Source of the DNA: Fibrobacterota bacterium
Lineage (GTDB): Bacteria > Fibrobacterota > Chitinivibrionia > Chitinivibrionales > FEN-1185
Assembly (NCBI GenBank): GCA_003165595.1
Contig: PLWQ01000006.1
Span: 69,061-133,060 of the forward strand
Direction of reading: 5' to 3'
Length of the DNA: 64,000 nt
The stretch's first letter is position 1; every line of letters starts with the position of its first letter. A program made the position numbers and the translations under genes. Below are positions 3,842 to 47,540 of this stretch, piece after piece. The notes under the pieces were generated by a model that was not told the DNA's origin, searched no databases, and worked only from the letters and a program-made list of their open reading frames with translations.

Positions 3842-3984
3842 CTGCCTAGCGTTAGGGGGACTGGAGGGCGCGCGGGAGCGCGGTGCCGGCCGACCCGGCC
3901 GAAGGCATAGGGCGGACCGGTACCGAGGCGAATAGCCGAGCCCGAAAGGAGACCGACCCGAGCATAGCGAGGGGAACGCCCAAA
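3842..3984 (+). repeat. GC-rich structured intergenic element, full copy 1
   Basis: Head CTGCCTAGCGTTAGGGGGACTGGAGG; P1 CGCGC-GGGA-GCGCG; P2 outer stem GGTGCCGG (3882-3889) / CCGGTACC (3917-3924); boxes CCGAGGC and GCCGAGCCCGAAAGGAGACCGACC; tail GAACGCCCAAAT. Confidence 0.85.
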
Positions 3985-4054
3985 TCCTTGCCTTCAATGA
4001 GCCGGGCGCCCAGATTCTTCATGAAAATGAAAATTATCGCTATCAATTACTATT

Positions 4055-6584: not shown

Positions 6585-6608
6585 ATAGGCCGTCAAATTC
6601 TTAATAGC

Positions 6609-6757
6609 AAATTGGGCGCTTCCCTTCGCTGCGCTCGGGCCGGTCTCCCTGCGGGCTCGGCCGCCCGGCCTCGGTGCAGCCTGCCCTGTGGCCTTCGGCC
6701 CGGGTCTGGCTGCACTGCGCACTGGCGCACCACTCCGGTCCACCTAGCGCTGGGCAG
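6609..6757 (-). repeat. GC-rich structured intergenic element, full copy 2
   Basis: Read on the minus strand: CTGCCCAGCGCTAGGTGGACCGGAG; P1 TGCGC-CAGT-GCGCA; P2 outer GTGCAGCC/GGCTGCAC (6674-6681 / 6708-6715 on the plus strand); then CACCGAGGCC, GCCGAGCCCGCAGGGAGACCGGCC and AGCGCCCAATTT. Confidence 0.85.
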
Positions 6758-6884
6758 AGGAATATTTCCACAATTGTCAACTTTTGCATTCGCCGGGACT
6801 GATGCAAGGTTTGCGTCGGCTCCCGAAACTTTTCACAGCCGCGAAGCGGCGTTCCAATGAGATGGCGTTGCGGAAACGTGACGT

Positions 6885-7001
6885 GCGCAAAGCGCAAGCT
6901 TTGCGCCTCGCGCACGCTTCCGCTGGAAGGGGTGTGCCCCCGGATCGCCGGCGCTCGGCGCCGGAAGCCGGGGGCCAGGGGAAACCGCTAGCGGTTTCCC
7001 C
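6885..7001. repeat. Cluster of three strong GC hairpins/palindromes
   Basis: 6885-6906 is GCGCAAAGC-GCAA-GCTTTGCGC. 6937-6974 is a nested hairpin, CCCCCGG...CCGGCGC-TCG-GCGCCGG...CCGGGGG. 6978-7001 is a perfect 24-nt palindrome, GGGGAAACCGCTAGCGGTTTCCCC. Confidence 0.7.
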
Positions 7002-7096
7002 ACCAAAATCATTTCAGGAGACCGGCCTGTGTTTTTTGCAGGCCGGGGAAACGCCCAAATCTACCCAACGCTCATGAGACCCATTGTTTATTTGTA

Positions 7097-8755: not shown

Positions 8756-8788
8756 TAATAATAGTTAGAGCATGGTTCTTGTTACTGG

Positions 8789-8821
8789 AGGCTCCAGCCG
8801 CAGGGCTGGGGCCTCTTTTTG
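8789..8821 (+). terminator. Rho-independent terminator of glnA
   Basis: 11-bp stem AGGCTCCAGCC / GGCTGGGGCCT with loop GCAG, followed by CTTTTT. Confidence 0.85.
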
Positions 8822-8857: not shown

Positions 8858-9006
8858 AATATGGGCGCCCCGCCGCTTCGCGGCGGCGGCTCTCCTTGCA
8901 GGCTCGGCCGGTTGGCCTCGGTGCCGGTCCGCCCTAATCGCCTTTGGCGAGGGTCGGCCGGCCCCGCGCTCTAGCGCGCCTTCCAGTCCAGCCTGGCGCG
9001 GCGCAG
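8858..9006 (-). repeat. GC-rich structured intergenic element, full copy 3
   Basis: Read on the minus strand: CTGCGCCGCGCCAGGCTGGACTGGAAGG; P1 CGCGC-TAGA-GCGCG; a P2 with bulges; then CACCGAGGCC, GCCGAGCCTGCAAGGAGAGCC, tail hairpin CCGCCGC/GCGGCGG and GGCGCCCATATT. Confidence 0.8.
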
Positions 9007-9150
9007 AAAACCATTCGCCTAATTGCCAATTACCTCTCATCTGAAGTCCCTTCAAGAAAAAACACCTGACAATGTACCTCCCATGAGTATTGTTGCGGCG
9101 CGTCAGTTCAGTTCAGCCGAAAAAAAAGTTGTGGCGACCAGTCCTTTGCC

Positions 9151-9294
9151 CTGCGCCAGGTTGGACCGACGGTGCTCTAAAGAGCAGTGCCGGTTGACCC
9201 CGCCGTCAGGCGTTGGGGCAATCCGGCACCGAGTCCGCATGGACGAGCCGCGAGGGAGAACCGCCGCCGTCTTCGGCGGGGCGCCAAGATTTTC
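9151..9294 (+). repeat. GC-rich structured intergenic element, full copy 4 (diverged)
   Basis: Head CTGCGCCAGGTTGGACCGACGG; P1 TGCTC-TAAA-GAGCA; P2 outer GTGCCGG (9187-9193) / CCGGCAC (9223-9229); then CGAGTCC and GAGCCGCGAGGGAGAACC; tail hairpin CCGCCG-TCTT-CGGCGG; end GGCGCCAAGATTTT. It lies head-to-head with copy 3. Confidence 0.75.
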
Positions 9295-10745: not shown

Positions 10746-10850
10746 TGTACCGAAATAAGAATACAAAATAACCGCCAGCTTGTCTTGGTCTGCTGGTTAG
10801 TGGTGCGCACAAGTGTGAAATTAGGGCGAAAATGACGTCGAACACACGGC

Positions 10851-10999
10851 CCACCAACACGCGCATGCCGGGCGGTCAAAGCCGCCCCAAATTGCCGCAT
10901 TTTACATTGGAAAAGGCTCGTGTCCGCGCTTCGCTGGCACGAGCCTAAATTATAGGCGGGAACTTCGGCATTGCGTGGAACGTTGTGGGGCAATTTGCC
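10851..10999 (+). repeat. Island junction repeat, composite X+Y, copy a
   Basis: X is CCACCAACACGCGCATGCC...GCCCCAAATTGCCGCATTTTACATTGGA (10851-10911). A 9-bp hairpin AGGCTCGTG/CACGAGCCT is inserted at 10914-10946. A diverged Y, TTATAGGCGGGAACTTCGGCATTGCGTGG, follows, then GGGGCAATTTGCC. Confidence 0.7.
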
Positions 11000-11166
11000 T
11001 GGCCCTTTCAAGAAAAAAATAGAAATGGGCGGTCGAGAAAGAAAATTTGTTTGCGCGGAAAAAGCGCCACATCGTGTGGCGAATAAGGAGCCCGCACCGG
11101 ATTTGAATTTCGACATGTTTGTCCGGTCAATGATAGGCCAATTAACTGCGTTCGGGGATAAATAAC

Positions 11167-12087
11167 GTGCCTAAGACAATACATGAAATCCATACCTCGC
11201 ATTGCTTGATTAATGGCGATTCGCGGGACCTTTCTTTCATAAACAATGAAACCGTGCATCTGGTCATTACGTCGCCGCCCTACTGGAACCTCAAGCGATA
11301 TAACGACAGCCCGGCGCAAATGGGCCATATTGACGATTATGAAGATTTTCTATCCGAATTGTCCAAGGTCTGGCGCGAAGTCCACCGAATCCTTGTTCCC
11401 GGTGGCAGGCTGGTTTGCGTCGTTGGCGACGTTTGCCTTTCAAGAAAAGAGCACGGCCGGCATCTGGTCATGCCTCTGCATGCCGACATTCAGGTACTGT
11501 GCAGAAAAATCGGGCTCGATAACCTTAATCCGATAATCTGGCATAAAATATCGAATGCCAAATTTGAAGCGAATACGAGCGCGAAATTCCTGGGCAAGCC
11601 TTATGAACCGAATGCGATAATAAAAAACGACATTGAATTTATCCTTATGCAACGGAAACCGGGCGGCTACAGACAGCCGACCGAGATCCAGAGAAAATTA
11701 AGCATGATCCCAAAGGACAAATTTGACGCATGGTTCAGCCAGATCTGGAATATTACCGGTGAATCGACACGAGAGCATCCGGCACCCTATCCTCTTGAAC
11801 TTGCAGACCGTTTGGTGCGGATGTTTTCATTTGTCGGAGACGTTGTTCTTGATCCATTCTGTGGTTCAGGAACAAGTATGTTGGCTGCTATGCAATCTGG
11901 CCGACATAGTATTGGAATTGAGATTGACCCGGAATACTGCAACATGATTGAGCATCGCATGGATCATAATTCTCTTTTTAAGACATCCTCGTTCCTTCGC
12001 TTGAATCCCGCTAAAAAGAAAATCAACGGCGAACTGATTGATTTTTACAACAAGGTAGAACGCGAATATTCTTCTTTGGTCGCATAA
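11167..12087 (+). CDS. DNA methyltransferase, beta-class (N4-cytosine or N6-adenine)
   Basis: 306 aa with a GTG start. Motif IV (ITSPPYWNLKRY) is N-terminal and motif I (VLDPFCGSGTS) is C-terminal, which is the circular order of beta-class amino-methyltransferases. No recognisable restriction endonuclease lies next to it. Confidence 0.85.
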   Translation: MPKTIHEIHTSHCLINGDSRDLSFINNETVHLVITSPPYWNLKRYNDSPAQMGHIDDYEDFLSELSKVWREVHRILVPGGRLVCVVGDVCLSRKEHGRHLVMPLHADIQVLCRKIGLDNLNPIIWHKISNAKFEANTSAKFLGKPYEPNAIIKNDIEFILMQRKPGGYRQPTEIQRKLSMIPKDKFDAWFSQIWNITGESTREHPAPYPLELADRLVRMFSFVGDVVLDPFCGSGTSMLAAMQSGRHSIGIEIDPEYCNMIEHRMDHNSLFKTSSFLRLNPAKKKINGELIDFYNKVEREYSSLVA

Positions 12088-12351
12088 AACGCTCTACCTG
12101 TGCCCGTCCTTGGCTCAAGTATAAACGGCGCAAAGTGCAAAAATCAAAATCCAGTGAACGCAGGCAAACCGCTCCCCTCTCAGGTCAGCAGGAGATCTAC
12201 GATTGTGGAACCAATCTTTTGCCCGGCGTTAGTTGGACCGGCGGGTTTGCCGCTTGACATGACGGTTTCGCCACCCGTCATGGTTCGACTGGCTCACCAC
12301 GGGTGTCAGCCAGTCATGTCAAAGACTCCGCCGCGGCTTCCGTCGGGTAGC

Positions 12352-12388
12352 GAGATTGTAGGCGGGCACGGCGGGCGGGTGCGTGGGA
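12352..12388 (+). repeat. Island junction motif Y, copy c
   Basis: Reads GAGATTGTAGGCGGGCACGGCGGGCGGGTGCGTGGGA. It is preceded at 12221-12245 by a head-like fragment of the GC-rich element (TGCCCGGCGTTAGTTGGACCGG) and at 12252-12322 by a long imperfect palindrome. Confidence 0.7.
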
Positions 12389-12539
12389 AGTTGCAAGCAA
12401 TTCTTGCGTTCAATGAGATTGATAAGTTTGCGCCTAAGAAAATTCAGGTAAGACCTGGTTAAATCTATTTTGAATATAGAAGAATGCAGCGCCCCAAAAC
12501 ACGCCGCGTCGTACGGCAATTTAAGCAAAGAGATTAGCG

Positions 12540-13382
12540 ATGAAGAAAAAAGCAATGGTAGATAGAAGCCTCCCCTCCGTACCCACTCCCTTCGTCCTTT
12601 ATACTGCCGCTGATGGCAAGGTTAAGGTTGAGGTATTCGTTCAAGATGAAACGGTATGGCTGACTCAGAAGCATATGTCTGAACTGTTTTCAGTCGATGT
12701 TCGTACGATAAGCGAGCACCTCCGCAATATTTTTGACAGCAACGAGTTGGAAGAATCGGCAACCGTCCGGAAAATCCGGACAGTTCAAAAAGAAGGTACC
12801 CGCGATGTATCACGCGAACTTGCTTTCTATAACCTTGATGCCATTATTGCCATCGGGTACCGCGTAAATTCGTATCAGGCGACGCAATTCCGCATATGGG
12901 CGACAAAAACACTAAAAGAGTTCATTATCAAAGGCTTTGTTCTGGACGACGACCGGCTCAAAAATGGAAAGACCTTTTTTGGCAAGGATTATTTCGAGGA
13001 ACTACTTGAACGTATCAGGGAAATTCGCGCGAGTGAGCGCCGGTTTTACCAGAAGATAACTGATATTTATGCGCTTGCGGCTGATTACGACAAAAATTCG
13101 CCTATTACCAAGGAGTTTTTCGCTACAGTTCAGAATAAATTGCATTGGGCAATTACCGGGAAAACCGCTGCAGAAATAATTTACGATTCAGCTGATGCAA
13201 AAAGGATTTATATGGGGCTTACCAGTTGGAAGCAGGCGCCTGACGGCAAGATAATGAAAACAGATGTTGTGGTTGCAAAGAATTACTTGAATAAAGCGCA
13301 TATCGACGAACTAAACAGAATCGTCTCTGCATATCTTGACCTCGCTGAGAACCAAGCGAAACGCCAGAATAAACCTGTTTAA
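12540..13382 (+). CDS. RhuM family protein (virulence/Fic-DOC-associated family)
   Basis: 280 aa. It reads VWLTQKHMSELFSVDVRTISEHLRNIF...AIIAIGYRVNSYQATQFRIWATKTLKEFIIKGFVLDDDRLKNG...IREIRASERRFYQKITDIYA, matching the conserved RhuM core. Confidence 0.88.
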   Translation: MKKKAMVDRSLPSVPTPFVLYTAADGKVKVEVFVQDETVWLTQKHMSELFSVDVRTISEHLRNIFDSNELEESATVRKIRTVQKEGTRDVSRELAFYNLDAIIAIGYRVNSYQATQFRIWATKTLKEFIIKGFVLDDDRLKNGKTFFGKDYFEELLERIREIRASERRFYQKITDIYALAADYDKNSPITKEFFATVQNKLHWAITGKTAAEIIYDSADAKRIYMGLTSWKQAPDGKIMKTDVVVAKNYLNKAHIDELNRIVSAYLDLAENQAKRQNKPV

Positions 13383-13412
13383 GAATGTATGGTAGCGTTC
13401 CAATTTACGTGT

Positions 13413-13509
13413 CCACAACACGCGCATGCCAGACGCAGAGCTGCCCCAAATTGCCGCATTTTACATTGGACAGATTTTAGGCGGGCACGGTAGTCGGGTG
13501 TGTGGAGCG
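13413..13509 (+). repeat. Island junction repeat, composite X+Y, copy b
   Basis: Reads CCACAACACGCGCATGCC-N12-GCCCCAAATTGCCGCATTTTACATTGGA, with the last 28 nt identical to copy a. It is directly followed by CAGATTTTAGGCGGGCACGGTAGTCGGGTGTGTGGAGCG. Confidence 0.75.
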
Positions 13510-13644
13510 TTTTTACTGATAATTTGCCCGGCATAGGAAGAAACCGCTTCGGGCGCAATACCGGTCGATAATCAGCAGAGGGTTAGAGTCTCAAGGAAAT
13601 CAAAGCTGACCACAATTTTTAAATTGCATGAGAAAGGGACGTCT

Positions 13645-15279
13645 ATGAATGTCTCCACGAGTTTAATAAGGATCTTTTTGCCGGCTAGTTTCCTGGGCTT
13701 GCTTTTCTTCGTCTCATGTGCTCAATCGCAAAGCAATCCGAATGTAACCACAGCGAGTACCGTCAGCCCGAATTCGTCCGTGTTGCAGAGAGTCGATAAT
13801 CTCGAATATCGTTTGAATCTAGAATCAACTAATTCCGAAAAGCGGTACAAGGACTTTTCTGACGTAGTCACCCTTGTTGGGTCTCTGTTTGGGGGATTTA
13901 TTGCTCTCTTCACTATCCTGACCTTTGTTATTAATTTCTTGCGTGACCAACAGCAGCGTAAAGACTATTTGACGGAACGCAAATTCTATGAGGAGCGTGC
14001 AATCAACACCGAAAAGCGCGATACCAAATCCGCAGAGCAGCAGATCAATCTTGGAAATAACGTATTGACTCACTCTAACGATATTCTCGCACAACAGATT
14101 GATAATATTAACAAACTGGGATCAGTAATTGCTTTGGTTCGAGATACATTCCAGCTTCAATTCAACCGCGAAAAGGCACAAAGCAATTTGGTGGAAATGC
14201 TTAATGCAACCAACAAAGTTGTCGAACAACTCCAGAATGATTTTCAACGAAAATTTGACGACGCGGCCCAGTTAATGTTAAACAATTTCAAGAACTACAA
14301 AGCCATGGACTGGCCATCTATTTCGGACGAAGCCTTAAACCTCGCAGCAAGGGCTAGAACCAAATTCGAAGGAGTCCCGGCACATATTCTTGAAAAAGAA
14401 AAAATCAACAGGCCCTATGAACTAGCCTGGATTTTTCAATTGATGGGCACCAGCGCTTTTTATGCCAACGATATCGCTTCTGCGCTTTCCCAACTCAAAG
14501 ATGCCGACGACATCTTCAATTCCTGTCCATTCCGACCCGATTATGGCCTTAAACATGCATACACGAAATATTTTCTTGGATTAATTGAAAAGAACTGGCA
14601 ACAAGAGACCGGGGTTACGCGCAGTAACCTAAAAGCGGCCTTTGACTACCTGCAAAAGGCTTGCGATCTGGTTAAGGAAGATAATAAACAATTCCTCATC
14701 CCAATCACATTTGCAGAGGTTCAATCATATCGTGACGATCAACGCGACGATGCGAACAGATTAATTGATGACATTCTCAATCGTTTTGACAGAATTGGTT
14801 ATGAATCCTTAGACAATAACCAACGCTCGCTGTTCATGCGAACGAACTTGCTCAAAGGCAATATTTTGTTCAAAGCGAAGGATCCGACGTGCTGCAACTG
14901 GTATAGAAACGTATTTGAAAGGAACAAGACAAACGCCTATGCACACCTATCATATGCACATTCGCTCCCGCCAAATAAGGCCCAGGAAGCCGGAGAACAT
15001 TGGAAGCTTGGGCTAAATTACTTGATAAGTTCCGGAGCTGTCCGAAAAAGAGAAACAACAACGAGAGTAATGGCGCTCACATGGGCAATTGTAGCAGCGA
15101 CAAAGTGTAATGACAAAAACAGTTTGGAAGGATATGGAAATGAACTGGAATCAGCGTCAAAGAATTTACAAAGCATTGGCCAGCGCATACCCCTTTTCTT
15201 CTCTCCTATTTCAAAGGACTTGCTAACTATCGAAGACTTGAAAAATCAATTAGATCAATATCTTGGACAAAAAACCTGA
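13645..15279 (+). CDS. Lipoprotein-signal, single-TM, all-helical protein of unknown function (545 aa)
   Basis: ORF 13624..15279; the likely start is ATG 13645. It has a lipobox-like LLFFVSC and a second hydrophobic helix, VVTLVGSLFGGFIALFTILTFVINFL. After that come a Q/N/K-rich coiled region and a TPR-like helical region. The gene is low-GC. No family was recognised. Confidence 0.65.
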   Translation: MNVSTSLIRIFLPASFLGLLFFVSCAQSQSNPNVTTASTVSPNSSVLQRVDNLEYRLNLESTNSEKRYKDFSDVVTLVGSLFGGFIALFTILTFVINFLRDQQQRKDYLTERKFYEERAINTEKRDTKSAEQQINLGNNVLTHSNDILAQQIDNINKLGSVIALVRDTFQLQFNREKAQSNLVEMLNATNKVVEQLQNDFQRKFDDAAQLMLNNFKNYKAMDWPSISDEALNLAARARTKFEGVPAHILEKEKINRPYELAWIFQLMGTSAFYANDIASALSQLKDADDIFNSCPFRPDYGLKHAYTKYFLGLIEKNWQQETGVTRSNLKAAFDYLQKACDLVKEDNKQFLIPITFAEVQSYRDDQRDDANRLIDDILNRFDRIGYESLDNNQRSLFMRTNLLKGNILFKAKDPTCCNWYRNVFERNKTNAYAHLSYAHSLPPNKAQEAGEHWKLGLNYLISSGAVRKRETTTRVMALTWAIVAATKCNDKNSLEGYGNELESASKNLQSIGQRIPLFFSPISKDLLTIEDLKNQLDQYLGQKT

Positions 15280-15362
15280 AGCACAGGTTCCCCGCACATC
15301 CGTCCGAACGTCTTCGATATATCACCCGGTGTGCACGATCATCCGTGACTGTGCGCCGTGGC

Positions 15363-15399
15363 GAGATCATAGGCGGGCACGGCGGGCTGTGCGCACACG
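15363..15399 (+). repeat. Island junction motif Y, copy d
   Basis: Reads GAGATCATAGGCGGGCACGGCGGGCTGTGCGCACACG, ~45 nt upstream of the 15441 start. Confidence 0.7.
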
Positions 15400-15440
15400 T
15401 TGCGGTTTTTTGTCAACCATCCTGATACCCGTGAAAAACC

Positions 15441-16223
15441 TTGTCCATAACCATTCCCGTGCAAAACATCACCCGTAAATCCCTCATCTACAAAAGCGGC
15501 CTTGGCTTCTATTGCGTGAACCATGCGCAGGGCTGCAGCCACGGGTGCAGGTATCCGTGCTATGCGTTTTCCATGGCTGGCCGTTACGGCCGGTCGGCAG
15601 GGTATGATGACTGGTGCAGGCCAAAGCTTGTTGCAAATGCCCCGGCGCTGCTGGACAAGGAGCTTCCGAAGCTGAAGAAGAAGCTTGGTGTTTCTGCGGA
15701 TGCGGATGAATTCCGCATACATTTGTGCCTGACCACGGACCCGTTCATGGTCGGCTGGCCGGAAATTCGGGCCATGAGCCTGCGCATTGTCGAGAAAATC
15801 AATGCCGCCGGCCTTACCTGCGATATTTTGACAAAGGGCATTCTTCCCCGCGAACTGGCAGGCCCCGCATTCAATAAGAAGAATCGTTACGGGATAAGCA
15901 TCGTGTCACTCGACGAGGATTTCCGGAAGCGCTGGGAGCCGGGAGCTGCCCCGTACGCGGACCGCATAGGCGCTTTGCGGTACCTGCACGACAGGGGCTT
16001 TCCCACGTATGCGCATATCGAGCCGTATCCGACACCAAATATTTTCAAGCAGGATATAGCAGCGCTGGTGAATGCCGTAGCCTTTGTTGACTCCCTGTAC
16101 TTCGGCGGCTGGAACTACAGTACCGCGGCAGAGAAATACCCGGACCGTACGGCGTTTTACGAGGAGCAATCCAGGATAGTAAAAGCGTTATGCCGCAAAC
16201 ATAACATTGAGTGCGAAATGTAG
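15441..16223 (+). CDS. Radical-SAM-like protein (SplB/COG1533-like), atypical Cys motif
   Basis: 260 aa with a TTG start. It reads VNHAQGCSHGCRYPCYAF, a CX3CX3C spacing instead of CX3CX2C. The rest resembles a TIM-barrel-like radical SAM core (IHLCLTTDPF, GISIVSLDE). The assignment is tentative. Confidence 0.55.
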   Translation: MSITIPVQNITRKSLIYKSGLGFYCVNHAQGCSHGCRYPCYAFSMAGRYGRSAGYDDWCRPKLVANAPALLDKELPKLKKKLGVSADADEFRIHLCLTTDPFMVGWPEIRAMSLRIVEKINAAGLTCDILTKGILPRELAGPAFNKKNRYGISIVSLDEDFRKRWEPGAAPYADRIGALRYLHDRGFPTYAHIEPYPTPNIFKQDIAALVNAVAFVDSLYFGGWNYSTAAEKYPDRTAFYEEQSRIVKALCRKHNIECEM

Positions 16224-16393
16224 GTATCAGGAAGGATTACAGTCCTATGCCCCCCAAAAGAACGTGGCGGCTTGTGCCGTGGGTGTATTGAGGGATTTGT
16301 CTCGTCTTGACAGGATCACGGGCAGGTCGTACAATCAGGACTGCGGCGGACCCTGCTTCGGAATCTCTGCCGGCATCCCCACGGAGGATTTTC

Positions 16394-17371
16394 ATGCGCC
16401 CGATTACCCTGTCCTTTCTTTTCTGTCTGCTTCCCGCGGCAATTGCCGCAAACACAATCCATGTTCCTCACGATTACGCATTGCTGCAATCTGCGGTTGA
16501 CGCATCTGCAGCCCGCGATACGATCGTCTGCGATAGTGTCAAGGACCCGGATTCGATAAGGATCATGGGCAAAACCAACCTGGTGGTTCAGGGCGTGTTA
16601 CCGGTCGGCAGCACAAGAATCACCACAGTCATGTTCATCAAAAACAGCTCCTGTGCCTTGGAGAACCTCTCTTTTGCCGGCGCAAAGGGATATGACGGCA
16701 GCAACAATAACAGCTGTAAAAGCGCTCCCGGGCTCGACGGAAGACCCGGAGCAGACGCGATTGTCCTGGACAGTTCAACCGTTGCCGTTACGGGGTGCAC
16801 TGCAAGGGGCGGCGACGGCGGATCCTACGGGATAAGCTACCAGAGCGGCATGCTGTGCCTCTGCGGGTCAAAAGGAATACCGGGAACCGCGCTTAAAGCG
16901 CATCATTCGACGGTCTACCTGGAAAACGATTCCCTGTTGTCAGGAACATGCGCCGGCACCTCGATCGCCGGCTGCTTCACCAATACCTGCACGGTGCAGG
17001 GTTTCGGCTGCACGGGCCTGGAAGGGACGGAGATTGACACGAGCCGGTCGATCATAAGTTCCATCAGCCTGGACTCGTCATCGACCGCCGGGCCGGCCGC
17101 AACCCCGGTCAATGGCCGGTATACCCCCCACTTTGCACCGTTGCGGCATCGCGTGCTGGTGTCCGCATCCGGCTTTCTTGCAATTCCGGATGATATCAGG
17201 GCGCCGTATTCCGTTTCTGTTTTCAATGCAAGGGGAAGTCTGGTGTGGTACCGGAACCGTGTTGCTTCACGGCAATGCAATTTTGCAAACCAGCTCGGCC
17301 GGGGGATCTACATGGTTTGTGTGCAATCGGCTCATGTGAAAATCTCGGGCAGGTGGGTGAATTCCCGATAG
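16394..17371 (+). CDS. Secreted Cys/Gly-rich protein with a T9SS-type C-terminal domain
   Basis: ORF 16307..17371. I place the start at ATG 16394, after GGAGGA. It has a signal peptide, MRPITLSFLFCLLPAAIAA. The C-terminal ~70 aa (YSVSVFNARGSLVWYRN...GIYMVCVQSAHVKISGRWV) resemble a Por secretion tail. Confidence 0.6.
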   Translation: MRPITLSFLFCLLPAAIAANTIHVPHDYALLQSAVDASAARDTIVCDSVKDPDSIRIMGKTNLVVQGVLPVGSTRITTVMFIKNSSCALENLSFAGAKGYDGSNNNSCKSAPGLDGRPGADAIVLDSSTVAVTGCTARGGDGGSYGISYQSGMLCLCGSKGIPGTALKAHHSTVYLENDSLLSGTCAGTSIAGCFTNTCTVQGFGCTGLEGTEIDTSRSIISSISLDSSSTAGPAATPVNGRYTPHFAPLRHRVLVSASGFLAIPDDIRAPYSVSVFNARGSLVWYRNRVASRQCNFANQLGRGIYMVCVQSAHVKISGRWVNSR

Positions 17372-17546
17372 AAGTCTTTGAATTACCGATTGAACGCACG
17401 GGCAAAACTATCAAAAGGAAACGGCGGAAAATGAAAGAAGCAAATCCTGTAAATATCAAAGAGATGAACTTCGTTCAATTGTTTGAACAGATTTCTCCGG
17501 AAGAGATAAGCGACAAAGTACGCTTTGCAATTGTGGCAATAAGCTT

Positions 17547-17690
17547 CTGCCCAACGTTAGGTGGACCGAAGGGTGCGCGAGAGCGCAGGGCTGCCTGACC
17601 GCGGCCAGAGGCCGTGGCGGCAGGCAGCACCGAGGCCTTGGCCGAGCCCGCAGGGAGACCGGCCCCGCGGAGCGGGGCAACGCCCAATTT
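17547..17690 (+). repeat. GC-rich structured intergenic element, full copy 5 (reference copy)
   Basis: Head CTGCCCAACGTTAGGTGGACCGAAGG; P1 TGCGC-GAGA-GCGCA; P2 outer GCTGCCTG (17590-17597) / CAGGCAGC (17621-17628), with inner CCGCGGCC-AGAG-GGCCGTGG; then CACCGAGGCC and GCCGAGCCCGCAGGGAGACCGGCC; tail hairpin CCCCGC-GGA-GCGGGG; end CAACGCCCAATTT. Confidence 0.88.
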
Positions 17691-17833
17691 CTTATCTTGT
17701 TATTGCAGCGGGGCACCCGGATCTATTTTTTGATCTCCCTGCACCCGCTCAGCAAACCAAAGCTGCATTTAATTCTATTTTCTCTGTGTCCTCTGTGTCT
17801 CTGTGGTGAATTTCCGGTATTAGAGGAGCCCGC

Positions 17834-18265
17834 ATGAATTCAAAAAAATATCCCCTCCCCTCTTTTCTTTCGGGAACATGCACCGTGGAAACCTACGAAA
17901 AATGGTTGGAAAAACGCGGTGATGAAATTCGCAAGCGAGACCTCGCTCGGGGCAAGCCGTTCGCCTTGACGTGTCAGGTGGCCTTTTACAAACAGAAAAT
18001 CCATGAAGCCGTGGCCAACAGCGGCGGCATCGACCCCTATACCGGCGAAACCCTGCGTTGGGACCTTATCGGCACATGGTACGAGGAACGCGCAAAGACC
18101 TTCGACAGGGCTTTCTTTCTTTTGCCCACGGTCGACCATACCGACCCGGAGGCCGCGGTGCTGGATTTCGAAATATGCTCGTGGCTGGTCAACACTTGCA
18201 AGAACCTCCTGAATCCAAACGAGTTCGTTGCGTTCTGCGGGAAGGTGGTGGAGTACCGGAAATAG
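17834..18265 (+). CDS. Hypothetical protein, possible degenerate HNH-like fold
   Basis: 143 aa with RBS GAGGAG. The segment LLPTVDHTDPEAAVLDFEICSWLVNTCKNLL loosely recalls the DH...N...CxxxN..K of HNH nucleases. No firm family assignment. Confidence 0.55.
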   Translation: MNSKKYPLPSFLSGTCTVETYEKWLEKRGDEIRKRDLARGKPFALTCQVAFYKQKIHEAVANSGGIDPYTGETLRWDLIGTWYEERAKTFDRAFFLLPTVDHTDPEAAVLDFEICSWLVNTCKNLLNPNEFVAFCGKVVEYRK

Positions 18266-18656
18266 CAGCGCCACAAACCTGCCCGATTCTTCTCGGTAAA
18301 CACAATCCAAACCAATCGCGTTCTCGGAGCATCCTTGATCGTTCACAGATTGCAAAGACTAGAATCTACCAAGCATTGGACGCGAGGTTGCCTTCAGCCT
18401 GTGCTTTGATGCCCCTCTCATTGTCTTCGCTTCGCTCGCGGTGCAACGCAGGCAATCAAGCCACCACATTCTTTGATCAAATGTCATGCGCAATAGGTTG
18501 GAACGCGCAGCGCGGGCCGCCACTTCTCTGGACGCGAGGGAAGAACTCTGCATTTTACCAGGCGACTAATTCAGTATTTTATTCCCCGATTCAATTATTT
18601 TATAACACTATGTGAACTGCATCTCATGATTACCAACACGGCAAGGAGCCATATCT

Positions 18657-20159
18657 ATGTCTTTCAAAGAAATCAATTTTGGCTATATCTCTGCTGAAGC
18701 CGAACGCGCAGAATCGCCCAACTTGATTATAGATGGATATTTTGATCCTGCCAACTGGATTGAAGATATCCTTAACAAAAGCATGTTTCTCATTTTGGGT
18801 TACAAAGGGACAGGAAAATCCGCCTTGATCAATCGAATCGATTTTGACAACAAATACGACAAGTTTTATACTTTTATTAGCCTGGATAATTTTCCATTTA
18901 CAGATTTCTTTTCGCAGGTATACAAAAACGACGACCTAAGCAAGGACGCCATTCTTCCCGATAGCTGGGCCTGGCTCATTTTGCTTCAGATAGTATGGTC
19001 ACTGCAAAAAGATCCCAACAAAGTCAACAATAGCAGATTTGACAAATTGGTTCACGGGCTTAAAGAAAACGGCTTTTCATCGCCAAATAAATTCAGTGAT
19101 CTCCTGATCCAAACGAAAGAAAACAAGTTTATTGTGCATGGACCCAGTATTGAATTAAATCCCGCTCTCGGCGTCGAATCTGATTTGACTCTATTCAAAT
19201 TTGAATCCAATTTAGCAAGGGACAAAACCGAAATCTCTCTGGACAGGCTCATTCTATTTACCAAACAAGTGATTGCCGAGCAAACGTCCATCAATCAACA
19301 TATCCTTTTTATTGATGGACTTGATCGAGCCATTTATGGCGGCGAAGATACGTATTCGTCTATCGCCACCTTAATCACTGAAAGTCTAAAACTAAACCAG
19401 TTCTTTCGTGAATCCAATGTTCCCATCAAAATTGTGATCGCTTGCCGCACTGATCTTTTTGGTAAGCTGTCCATCATTAATCGCAACTCAATTCTAAATA
19501 CGTACTCAATACCGCTTATATGGCACAACGACTTTAGGGATTATTCGAATTGCAATCTAAACAAACTTGTAAATTTCAGAGCCAAATTATCTTTGTCCAA
19601 GGAGGTTGATGTTTTTCGTGATTATTTTCCGGACGAATTTACATTGGACAATAATTCAACCGGCAAGACTTTTACACACAAGACAATCGTCTACATTTAT
19701 TGGCATACGCGCAACACTCCTCGCGACTTGCTTATGGCGTTAAAGGAAATACAAAAGGCTCACTCAATCTTCAATTCCATGGTCACATTGGATGAGATAA
19801 TCAAGGGACTTTCAAATTACTCAAGAAGCTATTTTTTGCCCGAAATAAAGGACGAACTTGGTGGTTATCTCACGACAAAGGAAGTTGACCAAGCGTTACA
19901 CATGCTACAATCGTTGTATGTGTGGTATGGTGACTATAAAGTCCTTATCAGAAGAGCAAAAGAGGCTGGTCTGGAAGAAGATCGTGCCCGTGATATTCTT
20001 TCCATTTTGTTTGAATGCAGCGCTATCGGCAATCAATTTAAGGCAGGTGATGGCGATAAAAGGCTTACCTACAAGTACTATATGCCAGAGGCAAGCTTGG
20101 ACATATCGCAGCAAATTGTCGTGCACCGAGGTTTATGGAAAGCTTTTAATTACGTATAG
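18657..20159 (+). CDS. Standalone P-loop NTPase (STAND/ORC-like), function unknown
   Basis: 500 aa. It has Walker A (LILGYKGTGKSAL), Walker B (HILFIDGLDRA) and a sensor-like TRNTPRDLLMAL. This is the most AT-rich gene in the window. RBS AAGGAG. Confidence 0.8.
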   Translation: MSFKEINFGYISAEAERAESPNLIIDGYFDPANWIEDILNKSMFLILGYKGTGKSALINRIDFDNKYDKFYTFISLDNFPFTDFFSQVYKNDDLSKDAILPDSWAWLILLQIVWSLQKDPNKVNNSRFDKLVHGLKENGFSSPNKFSDLLIQTKENKFIVHGPSIELNPALGVESDLTLFKFESNLARDKTEISLDRLILFTKQVIAEQTSINQHILFIDGLDRAIYGGEDTYSSIATLITESLKLNQFFRESNVPIKIVIACRTDLFGKLSIINRNSILNTYSIPLIWHNDFRDYSNCNLNKLVNFRAKLSLSKEVDVFRDYFPDEFTLDNNSTGKTFTHKTIVYIYWHTRNTPRDLLMALKEIQKAHSIFNSMVTLDEIIKGLSNYSRSYFLPEIKDELGGYLTTKEVDQALHMLQSLYVWYGDYKVLIRRAKEAGLEEDRARDILSILFECSAIGNQFKAGDGDKRLTYKYYMPEASLDISQQIVVHRGLWKAFNYV

Positions 20160-37112: not shown

Positions 37113-37212
37113 AGATCCGGGCGCCCCGCCGCTTGGTTCACACTTCGCATCTCGCTCCGCGCCCAGGGGGGTTATAGGCCCGCCGCCGCAAAGCGGCGGG
37201 GCGCCCGGATCT
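37113..37212. repeat. Inverted pair of tail modules of the GC-rich element forming a long hairpin
   Basis: AGATCCGGGCGCC (37113-37125) pairs perfectly with GGCGCCCGGATCT (37200-37212). Inside sit CCGCCGCTTGG... and the hairpin CCGCCGC-AAA-GCGGCGG. Confidence 0.7.
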
Positions 37213-37308
37213 TGCCGCATTTATCTCGGCATCTGCCGCTCTCATCCATTTTTTTTCCTTTGCGGCCACAGGCTCCCTATTATTTTAGTTTTAGAGGAGG
37301 GCAAACTT

Positions 37309-45049: not shown

Positions 45050-45178
45050 GGAACCTCGGGTATGGATGGCTATTCTCTGATTTTACACGGTTTTTCCCGA
45101 AAATGCCGTAAGAAAAACGAAGCGTGCGGCCGTGCCCGCGGCTAAATACGTGTGGGGCGCCGCCTATCACCGCTACGC

Positions 45179-45281
45179 GGGCGCCCCGCCGAAGACGGCG
45201 ACGGTTCTCCTTCCGGACTCGGCCAAGGCCTCGGTGCCGGGGGCGTCGCCCCCAACCCCCCACCTACTTTCTGTCTGCAGC
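45179..45281 (-). repeat. GC-rich element, truncated/degenerate copy
   Basis: On the plus strand it reads GGGCGCCCCGCCGAAGACGGCG..TTCTCCTTCCGGACTCGGCC AAGGCCTCGGTGCC, then the hairpin GGGGGC-GTC-GCCCCC, then CCACCTAC...CTGCAG (a head remnant). No P1 hairpin. Confidence 0.6.
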
Positions 45282-45294
45282 GACAGAAAGTAGG
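45263..45294. repeat. Perfect 13-bp hairpin
   Basis: CCTACTTTCTGTC-TGCAGC-GACAGAAAGTAGG. It overlaps the head remnant of the degenerate copy. Confidence 0.7.
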
Positions 45295-45599
45295 CAAAGA
45301 ACGCCGCGCCTACAGCGCCGCCTGATCGCTCGGCCGTCGGGCCGCTCGTGAACTCACCCCGCAGAACAGTTGCAGGATCTGAACGAAGATGCCGGTCTCG
45401 GACAGCACGAGCGGGCCAAACCTCCGGCCGAGTGGGCGGCGCTGATGGCGGAAGACAAAGACCAATACAATTCGGATTGATTCACCAGACGTTGTTGACG
45501 CATTGCACTCTTACCTCCTCGCCACTGATGGAGAAAGAAAAAGCAAAACAATTCAAGTTGATTCGCGCAAGCCCTTATTTACAAGTGGGCAAAGTACTT

Positions 45600-45819
45600 C
45601 TGCCAGCGTTAGGTGGACTGAAAGGCGCGCAAGAGCGCGGTACCGCCTGACCGCGGCCGCAGGCCCTAGCGGCAGGCGGTACCGAGGCGAGCCGGAGCAC
45701 ATGGATGTGCGGAGACCATCACGCATAGGCGTGACCGAAACGGCGCGAGCAGGATGCGAAGCGTGAATAGCCGAGCCTGTAAGGAGACCGACCCAAGCGC
45801 AGCGAGGGTAACGCCCATT
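45600..45819 (+). repeat. GC-rich structured intergenic element, long variant (copy 8)
   Basis: Head CTGCCAGCGTTAGGTGGACTGAAAGG; P1 CGCGC-AAGA-GCGCG; P2 outer GGTACCGCCTG (45639-45649) / CAGGCGGTACC (45673-45683). A ~76-nt insertion at 45689-45765 holds a second GAGCC...GGAGACC box and two extra hairpins. Then ATAGCCGAGCCTGTAAGGAGACCGACC and TAACGCCCATT. An extra tail fragment, GCGGCGGGGCGCCCAGATC, lies at 45823-45843. Confidence 0.8.
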
Positions 45820-45943
45820 CAAGGCGGCGGGGCGCCCAGATCCTGACCCACTACAAAGCAGCAAATACCCTCCATATCACCCTGGATTATTTTCATACAA
45901 TAGAACATCCGTCCGAAAGGTCATTATCTAACAAGGAGAACAA

Positions 45944-47468: not shown

Positions 47469-47540
47469 GGTGGACTTTGCCCAGCTGCCACGACAAGTTA
47501 GTAAATTGGGCGCCCCGAGCGCAGCGAGGGGAACGGGCGG
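47469..47540. repeat. Scrambled fragment of the GC-rich element
   Basis: GGTGGAC-TT-TGCCCAGC carries the head pieces in permuted order. It is followed by AAATTGGGCGCCCC (tail, minus sense) fused to CCCGAGCGCAGCGAGGGGAACG (tail, plus sense). Confidence 0.5.

What the first reader, a model, noticed from the sequence alone, without database searches (positions are those of the whole stretch)
17547..17690. A ~145-nt GC-rich intergenic element family whose helices covary between copies
There are six full copies: 3842-3984 (+), 6609-6757 (-), 8858-9006 (-), 9151-9294 (+), 17547-17690 (+) and 45600-45819 (+). There are at least five fragments: 12221-12245, 37113-37212, 45179-45281, 45823-45843 and 47469-47540. 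All are intergenic.

The shared order is: head CTGCCCARCGTTAGGTGGACCGRAGG, short hairpin P1, long hairpin P2, box CACCGAGGC, box GCCGAGCCnnnARGGAGACCGRCC, tail hairpin, then AACGCCCAATTT.

The boxes are conserved, while the helices change sequence but keep pairing:
- P2 outer stem: GGTGCCGG/CCGGTACC (copy 3842), GTGCAGCC/GGCTGCAC (6609), GTGCCGG/CCGGCAC (9151), GCTGCCTG/CAGGCAGC (17547), GGTACCGCCTG/CAGGCGGTACC (45600).
- P1: CGCGC-GGGA-GCGCG, TGCGC-CAGT-GCGCA, CGCGC-TAGA-GCGCG, TGCTC-TAAA-GAGCA (G-C replaced by T-A), TGCGC-GAGA-GCGCA, CGCGC-AAGA-GCGCG.
- Tail hairpin: CCCCGC/GCGGGG versus CCGCCGC/GCGGCGG.

Compensatory change between paralogous copies indicates selection on a folded nucleic acid. 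That could be a structured RNA, or single-stranded DNA hairpins used by an HUH-type transposase. It does not fit passive decay.

The two ends are not inverted repeats, and no transposase is present in the window. About 10 copies in 64 kb implies hundreds per genome. I cannot match it to any repeat or RNA family I know.
Basis: seen in the sequence. Interest (0 to 1): 0.72.

Follow-up and report, generated by a model that had tools for sequence, protein, structure and literature searches.

The report
Folded intergenic repeat family of Fibrobacterota
The window carries seven copies of a non-coding intergenic repeat of about 140 bases, unmatched in any library searched, whose seven-helix fold is kept intact by matching changes on both sides of its stems; it is found, on the order of a hundred copies per genome, in peat and wetland Fibrobacterota, and is a good candidate for a new structured RNA that spreads like a mobile element.

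Summary
A covariance model finds six full copies and one degenerate copy in the window, plus short fragments. About 150 further copies lie in Fibrobacterota MAGs and peat or wetland metagenome contigs.

Across 132 distinct copies, 92.8% of base-pair cells are paired and 41 of 44 pairs show changes on both sides.
- a 5-bp closing helix (GCGYY/RRCGC);
- three short long-range helices separated by conserved purine-rich internal loops;
- three hairpins on a junction;
- a tail hairpin.

The fold is strand-specific. The plus strand is 42% G and 18% A but only 8% T, and it folds better than its complement in 94 of 112 copies.

No Rfam family matches, and no transposase, reverse transcriptase or other protein gene recurs next to it. 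Copies lie in every orientation relative to neighbouring genes. They are absent from the same gln-operon spacers in relatives and can be replaced by another variant at one locus. One third follow one of three other GC-rich modules (covariation checked for F2 only) on the same strand.

Best reading: a mosaic, non-autonomous repeat whose core acts as a folded single strand, most likely RNA. Transcription and the mode of spread are not shown.

The parts
17547..17690 (+). Copy 5, the flagged copy. Leader 17547-17553. P0 closing helix 17554-17558 with 17679-17683. Pa 17560-17561 with 17659-17660. Pb 17566-17567 with 17653-17654. Pc 17571-17573 with 17647-17649. P1 hairpin 17574-17587 (loop GAGA). 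P2 long hairpin 17588-17630 (bulged A at 17598). P3 hairpin 17634-17643. Tail hairpin 17663-17677 (GGA triloop). Then CCA and a T-rich run, 17684-17700.
   Evidence: CM 116 bits, E = 6.5e-27. Helices come from the alignment, RNAalifold, pair counts and mutual information. Sequence read.
3842..3986 (+). Copy 1 (subfamily A), between the glnK terminator and glnD.
   Evidence: CM 125 bits. Absent from the glnK-glnD spacer of four relatives. Differs from sister strain L018 at five positions, all unpaired.
6609..6757 (-). Copy 2, downstream of glnD and pointing towards the glnD 3' end.
   Evidence: CM 108 bits. Part of an insertion of about 470 nt relative to relatives.
6758..6790 (-). Upstream 'U' module of copy 2 (AAAAGTTGACAATTGTGGAAATATTCCTCTGCCCA).
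   Evidence: Exact TTGACAATTGTGG at 6768-6780. The U consensus is present upstream of 44 of 129 copies.
6879..7000 (-). F2 module: a second structured GC-rich repeat, upstream of copy 2 and on the same strand.
   Evidence: nhmmer. F2 lies upstream on the same strand of 20 cores. 19 of 34 predicted pairs show changes on both sides across 16 sequences.
7016..7062 (+). 3' fragment of a core (GGAGACCGGCC, tail hairpin, GGAAACGCCCA).
   Evidence: Weak nhmmer hit at 7016-7059 covering model positions 109-145. Sequence read.
8858..9006 (-). Copy 3 (subfamily B), downstream of the glnA terminator and head-to-head with copy 4.
   Evidence: CM 139 bits. The glnA terminator at 8787-8816 lies between glnA and the copy.
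9146..9291 (+). Copy 4 (subfamily B; P1 variant UGCUC/GAGCA; UCUU tail loop).
   Evidence: CM 134 bits.
45599..45821 (+). Copy 6, with a 76-nt structured insert in the P3 loop (about 45689-45764).
   Evidence: CM 101 bits over the full model. nhmmer splits it into 45603-45694 and 45765-45818. Alignment.
45174..45336 (-). Degenerate copy; only the 3' half (45179-45240) is well preserved.
   Evidence: CM 36 bits, E = 4e-7. nhmmer E = 2e-8.
12200..12253 (+). Truncated copy: U-like module, head and the 5' strand of P1, interrupted by an inverted repeat (TTGACATGAC ... GTCATGTCAA, 12254-12322).
   Evidence: Sequence read. Inverted-repeat coordinates. Weak nhmmer hit.
37176..37213 (+). Tail-only fragment (CCGCCGCCGCAAAGCGGCGGGGCGCCCGGATCTT).
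   Evidence: Repeat D11 and inverted repeat I10. Weak nhmmer hit.
45820..45850 (+). A second tail-like module directly after copy 6.
   Evidence: Repeat D11. Sequence read.
47487..47539 (+). Tail-like fragment (CCCGAGCGCAGCGAGGGGAACGGGCG).
   Evidence: Repeat D3, 60% identity. Weak.
17735..17765 (+). 'D2' box (CTGCACCCGCTCAGCAAACCAAAG) downstream of copy 5. It is the reverse complement of the start of the Y and Z modules.
   Evidence: D2 lies 24-106 nt downstream, on the same strand, of 14 cores.

Best explanation
The element is the core module of a family of non-coding, non-autonomous, mosaic intergenic repeats, on the order of 100 copies per genome, confined as far as searched to a lineage of peat and wetland Fibrobacterota.

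The core is about 135 nt, running from GCGYYAGG to RRCGCCCA. It works as a folded single strand of one polarity, the G- and A-rich strand. Its parts are:
- a closing helix, P0;
- a rod of three short helices (Pa, Pb, Pc) interrupted by invariant purine-rich internal loops (NNGGA/GAGAN and GNN/NNA);
- a junction carrying hairpins P1, P2 and P3;
- a tail hairpin.

About 35 positions, most of them unpaired, are nearly invariant, while stem sequences change freely in a compensated way.

I think the folded strand is most likely RNA. In this reading the core is transcribed, often as the 3' domain behind one of three other GC-rich modules (F2, Z, or Y-W) on the same strand. It then serves as a compact binding, processing or stability element in the transcripts that contain it. 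The same fold is probably what is recognised when the unit is copied or exchanged between intergenic sites.

Shown:
- the family and its fold;
- strand asymmetry;
- the polar arrangement of modules;
- lineage-specific gain;
- replacement of one variant by another at one locus;
- no recurrent protein gene beside the copies.

Inferred, not shown:
- transcription;
- the RNA-level role;
- the copying mechanism.
For: Family and fold:
- The window holds 7 CM hits; 100 sources hold 133.
- 92.8% of 5614 pair cells are standard pairs. This compares with 80.2% after shuffling and 33-45% after sliding the 3' partners.
- 41 of 44 pairs and 699 cells show changes on both sides; 0 of 500 shuffles reach this.
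- The top pairs by mutual information with APC correction are the proposed base pairs.
- Rare compensations support the 2-bp helix Pa (G-C to U-A or C-G in 6 copies).

Strand specificity:
- The plus strand is G 41.6%, C 32.1%, A 18.1%, T 8.2%.
- It folds better than its complement in 94 of 112 copies (median -2.6 kcal/mol, p = 8e-14).
- G.A mismatches number 59, against 21 C.U.
- Loops are C-GNA-G, GNNA and NRRA on this strand.

Features typical of a structured RNA:
- long-range helices with invariant internal loops;
- a covarying non-Watson-Crick position (A.G in 99 copies, C.A in 20);
- large insertions tolerated only at hairpin tips (P1, P2, P3 and tail).

Polarity: partner modules sit upstream on the same strand in 58 cases against 2 on the opposite strand. 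Downstream they occur only inverted. F2 itself covaries and keeps two conserved G.U pairs on this strand.

Context:
- All four gene-orientation classes occur (29, 28, 28 and 18).
- There is no strand bias relative to neighbouring genes.
- No neighbouring protein family recurs in 777 ORFs.
- The upstream genes have their own terminators ahead of copies 1 and 3.

Gain and turnover:
- The gln spacers of four relatives (GlnD 67-77% identical) lack the core.
- L072 and L090 have flanks 94-98% identical, but their cores are only 71% identical, with 7 compensated pairs.
- Within one population, copy 1 differs at 5 positions, all unpaired. By contrast, 2.8 kb of adjacent coding DNA is identical.
Against: - No expression data are available.
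- No convincing promoter: the U module has a perfect TTGACA but nothing resembling a -10 box at 16-18 bp. It also does not fit the canonical sigma-54 spacing that this genome uses at glnA (TGGCAC-N5-TTGC at 7217-7231).
- No canonical intrinsic terminator: the T-rich run starts about 12 nt after the tail hairpin.
- G.U pairs are only weakly favoured over A.C (63 against 44). Established RNA families, from my own knowledge, usually show a much larger excess.
- C-GNA-G triloops are a classic motif of very stable DNA hairpins (own knowledge).
- One orthologous pair (L001 and L068) shows a copy decaying at about the same rate as its flanks, with stem-breaking changes and a 5-nt head deletion. Not every copy is therefore under selection.
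- Only 34% of cores have a detected partner module.
Confidence: 0.5

Rival explanations
1. The core is cargo inside a conventional MITE. A DDE transposase encoded elsewhere in the genome moves composites bounded by TIR-like ends. The left end is TTGG(A/T)T(G/T)GCTGAGCCGG(G)TG, and the right end is its reverse complement. The core travels as an internal passenger, and solo cores are remnants of such composites.
For: - Y and Z modules start with this box, and its reverse complement (D2) follows 14 cores at 24-106 nt.
- Composites such as Y-W-core-inverted Z, and Z-U-core-D2, span 320-460 nt. Core-less Y-inverted Z units of 210-230 nt also exist.
- All left-hand modules begin with TGG and the core ends with CCA. 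This resembles the TG...CA termini of many DDE transposons (own knowledge).
- Gain is lineage-specific.
Against: - Only about 10% of cores have such ends on either side.
- No target-site duplication is visible at 10 composite ends.
- No transposase recurs among 777 ORFs near the copies (BLASTP clustering only), and none was found among the 34 window ORFs scanned with Pfam.
- A passenger has no reason to keep a seven-helix fold with compensated changes in 41 of 44 pairs.
Confidence: 0.2
2. The element is a single-stranded DNA element. The hairpins are read on one DNA strand by a Y1/HUH transposase (RAYT or IS200/IS605-like) or another structure-specific recombinase.
For: - The fold is strand-specific.
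- There are no long terminal inverted repeats and no target-site duplication.
- C-GNA-G triloops dominate P2 and the tail.
- G.U pairs show only a weak excess over A.C.
- GTAG-bearing perfect palindromes are inserted in some tail loops. This hints that REP-type palindromes exist in these genomes; REPs tagged with GTAG are described in PMC3733652.
Against: - No HUH gene was found (Pfam on 34 window ORFs only).
- There is no orientation bias relative to neighbouring genes (114 against 117). In the window, which has a uniform GC skew, copies are 4 plus and 3 minus.
- REPs are 20-40 bp single palindromes (PMC2817692, PMC3733652), not 135-nt multi-helix folds with long-range pairs.
- No conserved target tetranucleotide lies 5' of the element.
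Confidence: 0.15
3. The copies are free-standing genes of a trans-acting or catalytic RNA (an sRNA family, ribozyme or ligand-binding aptamer), each with its own promoter. They are not mobile DNA.
For: - Dense invariant unpaired nucleotides at the junctions.
- Copies lie in any orientation relative to their neighbours.
- A conserved 32-nt upstream module containing TTGACA occurs in one third of copies.
- A T-rich tract lies downstream.
- Four copies flank nitrogen-assimilation genes in the window.
Against: - The copy number is on the order of 100 per genome.
- Copies are absent from orthologous spacers in relatives.
- One variant is replaced by another at one locus.
- Truncated and nested copies occur.
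- No -10 box lies at a workable distance from TTGACA.
- The association with gln genes is not conserved in relatives.
Confidence: 0.12
4. The copies are passive remnants of an old duplication, or a chance GC-rich similarity.
For: None beyond the fact that some copies are degenerate (45174-45336; L068).
Against: About 150 copies in unrelated contexts, with 0 of 500 shuffles reaching any of the covariation measures.
Confidence: 0.01

Closest known systems
REP sequences and bacterial interspersed mosaic elements (BIMEs), with REPINs and RAYT transposases (PMC2817692, PMC3116915)
   Same: - Non-coding, GC-rich and intergenic.
- About 100 or more copies per genome.
- Found in both orientations.
- Combined with other short motifs in a regular mosaic syntax.
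- Often lie at gene 3' ends.
- No open reading frame of their own.
   Different: - REPs are single palindromes of 20-40 bp, and copies within a genome are near-identical to a master sequence.
- Here the unit is a 135-nt seven-helix fold with long-range pairs.
- Copies within the window are far from identical (mean column identity 57% for the six full copies with flanks).
- No RAYT gene was found.
Pneumococcal BOX, RUP and SPRITE repeats (PMC3049150)
   Same: - Modular: boxA, boxB and boxC there, compared with F2/Z/Y-W, U and core here.
- Highly base-paired.
- Thought to act on the transcripts that contain them.
- Gained on a species timescale, and currently slow-moving.
   Different: - BOX and RUP fold by pairing their terminal inverted repeats into one duplex.
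- This core has a branched fold with conserved junction loops and only a 5-bp terminal helix.
- The sequences and the host phylum are unrelated.
MITEs derived from IS elements (for example Correia/NEMIS, Nezha; review PMC3184786)
   Same: - Short and non-autonomous.
- Intergenic.
- Gain is lineage-specific.
- Some composites here have TIR-like ends.
   Different: - No terminal inverted repeats at the core.
- No target-site duplication seen.
- No parent IS found.
- GC-rich rather than AT-rich.
ERIC/IRU elements of enterobacteria (own knowledge)
   Same: - Size of about 127 nt.
- Intergenic and transcribed.
- No known transposase.
- Imperfect pairing that is conserved.
   Different: - ERIC is essentially one long imperfect hairpin.
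- It is found in a different phylum and has no sequence similarity.
Guide-RNA scaffolds of IS200/IS605 and IS110 elements (omega/reRNA, bridge RNA) and their ORF-less derivatives (own knowledge)
   Same: Structured non-coding parts of about 150 nt, carried by mobile elements that lack terminal inverted repeats.
   Different: - No TnpB, IscB or IS110 gene lies next to any copy in the window (Pfam), and none recurs in about 1 Mb of loci by clustering.
- No variable guide-like segment abuts the scaffold.
- HEARO and the other related Rfam models do not match.
Candidate structured RNA motifs found by comparative genomics (Rfam 15)
   Same: Strong covariation, invariant junction nucleotides, and variable-length hairpin tips.
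   Different: - No family reaches its threshold on any module.
- Such motifs are rarely dispersed at about 100 copies per genome in both orientations.

Membership tests
Any Rfam 15 RNA family | Score at or above the family's gathering threshold | tested here: not met
   0 hits in the 64-kb window. Only noise below 20 bits at E up to 10 on the element. No hit on the core, F2, Y, W or Z in five other loci.
tRNA / tmRNA-like | Cloverleaf detected by ARAGORN | tested here: not met
   0 genes in the window.
MITE | Terminal inverted repeats at the element ends | tested here: inconclusive
   The core has only a 5-bp terminal helix. Upstream and downstream flanks pair no better with their own partner than with flanks of other copies (p = 0.67). 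TIR-like GCTGAGCCGG boxes bound larger composites in about 10% of copies.
MITE | Target-site duplication | tested here: not met
   None visible at 10 composite ends or at the core ends.
MITE | A parent IS with matching ends in the same genome | not testable with these tools
   Only 64 kb of this genome and fragments of related ones are held. No transposase was found among 34 window ORFs scanned with Pfam, and none recurs among 777 ORFs near copies by BLASTP clustering.
REP / REPIN (RAYT-mobilised) | A 20-40 bp palindrome with a GTAG or CGTC tag; REPIN = two inverted REPs (PMC3733652, PMC3116915) | tested here: not met
   The core is a 135-nt branched fold. GTAG palindromes occur only as insertions in some tail loops.
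REP / REPIN (RAYT-mobilised) | A RAYT (Y1 transposase) gene in the genome, flanked by REPs | not testable with these tools
   The whole genome is not available. None was found among the window ORFs scanned.
IS200/IS605-derived element (PATE) | Subterminal hairpins, a conserved 4-5-nt target 5' of the left end, and an orientation bias relative to replication | tested here: not met
   The positions just 5' of the core are variable. Orientation in the window is 4 plus and 3 minus under a uniform GC skew. Neighbouring genes are 114 on the same strand and 117 on the opposite strand.
Integron attC site | R''(RYYYAAC) ... R'(GTTRRRY) order, a single imperfect hairpin, arrays of cassettes in one orientation | tested here: not met
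   GTTAGGT occurs at the 5' end and only in subfamily A (subfamily B has GCCAGG). The order is reversed, the fold is branched, and copies are dispersed in both orientations.
Cis-regulatory leader (riboswitch or T-box type) | Consistently upstream of, and co-oriented with, the regulated gene | tested here: not met
   The 3' neighbour is on the same strand in 50 cases and on the opposite strand in 65.
Independent sRNA gene | Its own promoter and terminator at fixed distances | tested here: inconclusive
   The U module (TTGACA...) is present in 44 of 129 copies but has no -10 box at 16-18 bp, and its GG-N12-GC spacing is not the sigma-54 spacing. The T-rich tract is not adjacent to a hairpin.
BIME/BOX-like mosaic intergenic repeat (the kind I file it under) | Non-coding, dispersed, intergenic, and combined with other repeat modules in a regular order and orientation | tested here: met
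   About 150 copies lie between genes. Partner modules are upstream on the same strand in 58 cases against 2, and downstream only inverted.

The most novel reading that the evidence does not exclude
The core is a new class of complex-folded functional RNA: a ribozyme, a ligand- or protein-binding scaffold, or a self-propagating RNA. It has dispersed to about 100 sites per genome, which would make it a bacterial counterpart of a SINE. Its invariant junction nucleotides would form an active or binding site. Together with F2, Z and Y-W it would belong to a previously unseen system of modular structured RNAs in Fibrobacterota.
Probability: 0.25. Interest if true: 0.85.

Novelty: new variant of a known kind. 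Interest (0 to 1): 0.64.

Why it matters
Dispersed bacterial repeats known so far (REP, BIME, ERIC, BOX, Correia) are simple palindromes or TIR duplexes. Their function and mode of spread are mostly still debated.

This family is different. It is a branched, seven-helix, strand-specific fold with about 35 invariant, mostly unpaired nucleotides, backed by one of the strongest covariation signals one can get from about 130 distinct copies. Yet it behaves like mobile DNA: it is gained in a lineage-specific way, replaced at a fixed locus, and occurs nested and truncated.

If it is an RNA, it is a new structured RNA class with an unusual, repeat-like distribution, and it comes with at least one further covarying module (F2) and two more untested GC-rich ones (Z, Y-W). 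If it is read as DNA, it would be the most elaborate DNA fold used by a bacterial mobile element.

Either way it gives a concrete, testable object in an uncultured, poorly studied phylum. It also gives a covariance model that will improve the annotation of intergenic DNA in peat metagenomes.

Tried and rejected
- **Rfam.** Gathering and E-value modes on the window, the element and five other loci found nothing relevant.
- **tRNA or tmRNA.** None found.
- **Other collections.** The box pattern has no hit in viral contigs. blastn against plasmids found nothing.
- **Other phyla.** The pattern hits in Actinomycetota, Acidobacteriota, Gemmatimonadota and Sphingomonas score 19 bits or less with the CM, so they are chance.
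- **U module as a promoter.** As a sigma-70 promoter it has a perfect TTGACA but CTGCCC where the -10 box should be. The TATCTT-like hexamer is only 11 nt away. As a sigma-54 promoter it has GG-N12-GC, whereas this genome's glnA promoter has the canonical GG-N10-GC. As an independent operator it fails because in the window it occurs only beside cores.
- **Flank pairing or hidden terminal inverted repeats.** Own flanks pair no better than flanks from different copies.
- **5'-truncation bias, as expected for retroposition.** There are 14 5'-only and 13 3'-only fragments.
- **A linked protein gene.** Clustering 777 neighbouring ORFs gave only two-component proteins.
- **Clean empty sites among the fetched loci.** Most size differences turned out to be other repeat modules. 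Empty sites were obtained instead from gln-operon orthologues.
- **attC reading.** Rejected on motif order and fold.
- **Small-ORF or type I toxin reading.** Rejected because loop-length indels break any reading frame.
- **RNAalifold pair 30-118.** This pair (U.G in 60 copies) was replaced by the covarying P1 pair 30-45.
- **Literature.** Searches found no description of the element.
Full report

Yes. The repeat finder, nhmmer and a covariance model all recover the six full copies at the stated places, plus a degenerate seventh at 45174-45336 on the minus strand. Copy 6 is full length but carries a 76-nt insert in one hairpin loop. The conserved box CGAGCCNNNARGGAGA occurs 10 times against 3.0 expected; none of 100 shuffles reaches that.

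The listed fragments are real but unequal:
- 12200-12253 is a 5' head with its upstream module, cut off by an unrelated inverted repeat.
- 45179-45240 is a 3' half.
- 37176-37213, 45820-45850 and 47487-47539 are tail-only pieces.
- 7016-7062 is an additional 3' fragment.

All lie between genes. The neighbours are:
- amtB, glnK, glnD and glnA for copies 1-4;
- hypothetical genes in a low-GC island for copy 5;
- a hybrid histidine kinase and a short-chain dehydrogenase for copy 6.

**2. Where does it occur?**

The window is part of a 491-kb metagenome contig (ENA ERZ19979932), and identical or 97%-identical sister contigs exist.

A box pattern scanned over one genome per species hit only Fibrobacterota MAGs (MFD03044.bin.1.58, MFD03726.bin.1.27 and a Chitinivibrionales MAG). 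The four hits in other phyla score 19 bits or less with the model and are chance.

In about 1 Mb of fetched DNA, nhmmer finds 190-194 matches, 143 of them full length. Of these, 89 differ from every other by more than 8%. Nothing was found in viral contigs or plasmids.

The patterns recover only 3-10% of copies that were not used as seeds. Secondary copies occur at about 42 per Mb. A genome therefore probably holds on the order of 100 copies.

**3. Anatomy**

I aligned 86 non-redundant copies (A4), built a covariance model with a structure read from the covariation (R1), and re-aligned 133 matches (A5). The fold contains:
- P0, a 5-bp closing helix GCGYY/RRCGC. Its two inner pairs are U-A in 72-73 copies and C-G in 49-52.
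- Pa (GG/CC), which is nearly invariant but has U-A or C-G replacements in six copies.
- An internal loop NNGGA/GAGAN.
- Pb (CY/RG; C-G in 66 copies, U-A in 50).
- An internal loop GNN/NNA, with a covarying non-Watson-Crick position (A.G in 99 copies, C.A in 20).
- Pc, 3 bp.
- A junction carrying three hairpins: P1 (5 bp, NRRA tetraloop), P2 (about 16 bp with a bulged A within GACC, closed by C-GNA-G or GNNA loops), and P3 (GGCN/NGCC).
- The tail hairpin, then the 3' strand of P0, followed by CCA and a T-rich run.

Overall, 92.8% of 5614 pair cells are standard pairs. The figure is 80.2% after shuffling and 33-45% when the 3' partners are slid by one to three columns. 41 of 44 pairs have changes on both sides, in 699 cells. 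No shuffle out of 500 reaches any of the measures.

The alignment was fitted to the structure, which inflates such counts. However, an RNAalifold run on the plain MAFFT alignment already gave 16 covarying pairs out of 23. An energy-free mutual-information ranking also puts the proposed pairs on top.

Two subfamilies exist:
- A: P0 with UU/AA, and tail CCC-GA-GC...GC-GA-GGG with tandem G.A.
- B: P0 with CC/GG, and tail CCGCCGC...GCGGCGG.

Insertions of 16-85 nt occur only at the tips of P1, P2, P3 and the tail.

**4. Which strand, and is it RNA or DNA?**

The fold is strand-specific:
- The plus strand is G 41.6%, C 32.1%, A 18.1%, T 8.2%.
- It folds more stably than its complement in 94 of 112 copies (median difference 2.6 kcal/mol, p = 8e-14).
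- Purine-purine mismatches (59) outnumber their complements (21).
- The loop motifs (GNA, GNNA, NRRA) make sense only on this strand.

That rules out recognition of plain double-stranded DNA as the whole story. It does not separate RNA from single-stranded DNA.

For RNA:
- the branched fold with long-range helices;
- invariant purine-rich internal loops;
- hairpin tips that tolerate insertions;
- no orientation bias relative to neighbouring genes (114 on the same strand, 117 on the opposite strand);
- a 4:3 split within a window of uniform GC skew;
- strict same-strand polarity with partner modules (section 5).

Against RNA:
- the weak excess of G.U over A.C (63 against 44);
- the prevalence of C-GNA-G triloops, known as very stable DNA hairpins (own knowledge);
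- no convincing promoter or intrinsic terminator.

**5. It is one module of a polar mosaic**

The 3' end of the core lies close to the next gene (median 60-107 nt). On the 5' side, by contrast, there are about 280 nt of non-coding DNA.

One third of copies (44 of 129) are preceded by a conserved 32-nt U module, aAacTTgACAAtTGtGG.Aa..atCtTCTGCCCa. In the window this module occurs only next to cores.

Further upstream, on the same strand, 50 of 149 cores have one of three other GC-rich modules:
- F2 (20 cases; in the window at 6879-7000, upstream of copy 2);
- Z (19 cases);
- Y (11 cases), mostly with W (8 cases).

Only 2 partner modules lie upstream on the opposite strand. Downstream, partners occur only inverted: Z 8, Y 1, F2 1.

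F2 itself covaries. 19 of 34 predicted pairs show changes on both sides across 16 sequences, and two G.U pairs are conserved.

Y and Z begin with TTGG(A/T)T(G/T)GCTGAGCCGG(G)TG. The reverse complement of that box (D2) follows 14 cores. Composites of 210-460 nt therefore have TIR-like ends, but I saw no target duplication. None of these modules matches Rfam.

**6. Dynamics**

The gln operon is syntenic in four relatives whose GlnD is 67-77% identical. Their glnK-glnD and glnD-glnA spacers are 129-252 nt and contain no core.

In the window, those spacers are about 200 and 470 nt longer. The extra DNA holds copy 1, and copy 2 with U, F2 and a 3' fragment. The conserved enhancer-like palindromes and the sigma-54 promoter of glnA follow unchanged. 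One relative has a core after glnA inside a Y-W-core-inverted Z composite.

Orthologous loci:
- At one locus (L072 and L090) the flanks are 94-98% identical, but the cores are only 71% identical, with seven compensated pairs. One variant has therefore replaced another. The breakpoints lie about 15 nt inside the head and about 22 nt past the 3' end.
- At another locus (L001 and L068) the same copy persists. It diverges about as fast as its flanks, with stem-breaking changes in one genome.

Within the window's own population, copy 1 differs from a 97%-identical sister contig at five positions, all unpaired. Meanwhile glnK and glnD (2.8 kb) are identical.

Every pair of non-orthologous copies I saw differs by more than 8%, so there is no sign of a recent burst. 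No transposase, reverse transcriptase, integrase or other protein family recurs next to copies, and none was found among the window ORFs scanned.

**7. Interpretation**

The best-supported reading is a mosaic, non-autonomous intergenic repeat. It is of the general kind of BIME and BOX elements. Its core module is a strand-specific, complex fold under selection, most likely acting as RNA within the transcripts that contain it. It is gained and exchanged between intergenic sites on a species timescale (confidence 0.5).

Rivals:
- cargo of a TIR-bounded MITE moved by an unseen DDE transposase (0.2);
- a single-stranded DNA element for an HUH-type enzyme (0.15);
- a family of free-standing RNA genes that is not mobile at all (0.12).

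Passive decay is excluded. Section 4 and the rival entries state what would separate these readings.

**8. Novelty and scores**

I found nothing like it in Rfam 15 or in the searched literature. I file it as a new variant of a known kind (dispersed mosaic intergenic repeats) rather than as categorically new, because its behaviour in the genome is that of such repeats.

What is unusual is the complexity and the quality of support of the fold, and the existence of at least one companion module that also covaries. Interest is 0.64. The most novel reading that is not excluded is a new functional RNA class dispersed like a SINE. I give it probability 0.25, and it would deserve about 0.85 if true.

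Noticed in passing
window 6879-7000 (-); 34 matches in other loci: F2 is a second GC-rich repeat family of about 125 nt (GGGAAACCGC..GCGGTTTCCCC TGGCCCCC...GGGGGCACACCCC ...). It has its own covarying fold: 19 of 34 predicted pairs show changes on both sides across 16 sequences, and two G.U pairs are conserved. No Rfam match. It is present or absent between orthologous loci L068 and L001.
   Followed up: partly
L143 10288-10695; L003 3283-3687; L116 3669-3896; Z-like piece in window 41979-42052 (-): Further GC-rich repeat modules Y, W and Z occur. Y and Z start with TTGG(A/T)T(G/T)GCTGAGCCGG(G)TG, and this box also occurs alone or in tandem, 49 times in about 1 Mb. Core-less Y plus inverted Z units of about 220 nt look like MITEs with 25-nt terminal inverted repeats.
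   Followed up: partly
window 3842-3986 compared with L018 5399-5543: Between two 97%-identical strains, copy 1 has five differences, all at unpaired positions; three of the four substitutions are A/G. The adjacent glnK and glnD (2.8 kb) are identical, and 304 nt of flanking spacer has three differences. Possible causes are a local hot spot, a conversion patch, or relaxed or diversifying loops.
   Followed up: partly
window 7097-7110, 7128-7137, 7217-7231; also 1743-1757 (-) and 1963-1977 (+): Canonical sigma-54 promoters (TGGCAC-N5-TTGC) lie ahead of glnA, amtB and the divergent glutamate-synthase gene. Palindromes (GTACAAATTTGTAC, ACAAAATTGT) lie upstream of the glnA promoter and are conserved in relatives. 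Together these look like a nitrogen regulon with enhancer sites.
   Followed up: partly
window 3654-3681: A tandem heptamer run (AAAGTTN)x4 lies directly after the glnK stop codon. Similar runs follow stop codons in L001, L068 and L140.
   Followed up: no
window about 9400-20000: A low-GC island (44-48% against about 57%) holds a PIN-domain protein, an N6/N4 DNA methylase, a RhuM-family protein, a radical-SAM protein and several ORFs without a Pfam match. Copy 5 and the truncated copy at 12200 sit inside it. It is possibly a defence or mobile island.
   Followed up: partly
window 12254-12322; 12353-12386, 13472-13505, 15364-15397: A 69-nt unit bounded by the inverted repeat TTGACATGAC/GTCATGTCAA interrupts the truncated copy. 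A separate 34-nt repeat (AGATTGTAGGCGGGCACGGCGGGCGGGTGCGTGG) occurs three times in the island.
   Followed up: no
L001 about 6470-6520; other loci (tail-loop inserts listed): Long perfect palindromes containing GTAG (for example TGTAGAGACGTAGCGCGCTACGTCTCTACA) are inserted in the tail-hairpin loop of some cores. They are REP-like, which hints that a RAYT-type system may exist in these genomes.
   Followed up: no
window 27746-28390 and 28694-29353: An internal duplication of about 640 nt at 74-81% identity lies inside the gene for a Laminin_G_3 / T9SS-sorted protein (27212-29662).
   Followed up: no
window 1-7000 compared with L018: Divergence between the two strains is mosaic: 7% and 14% in the first 1.9 kb, 2.9% in amtB, and 0% from glnK through glnD. 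This points to recent recombination within the population.
   Followed up: no
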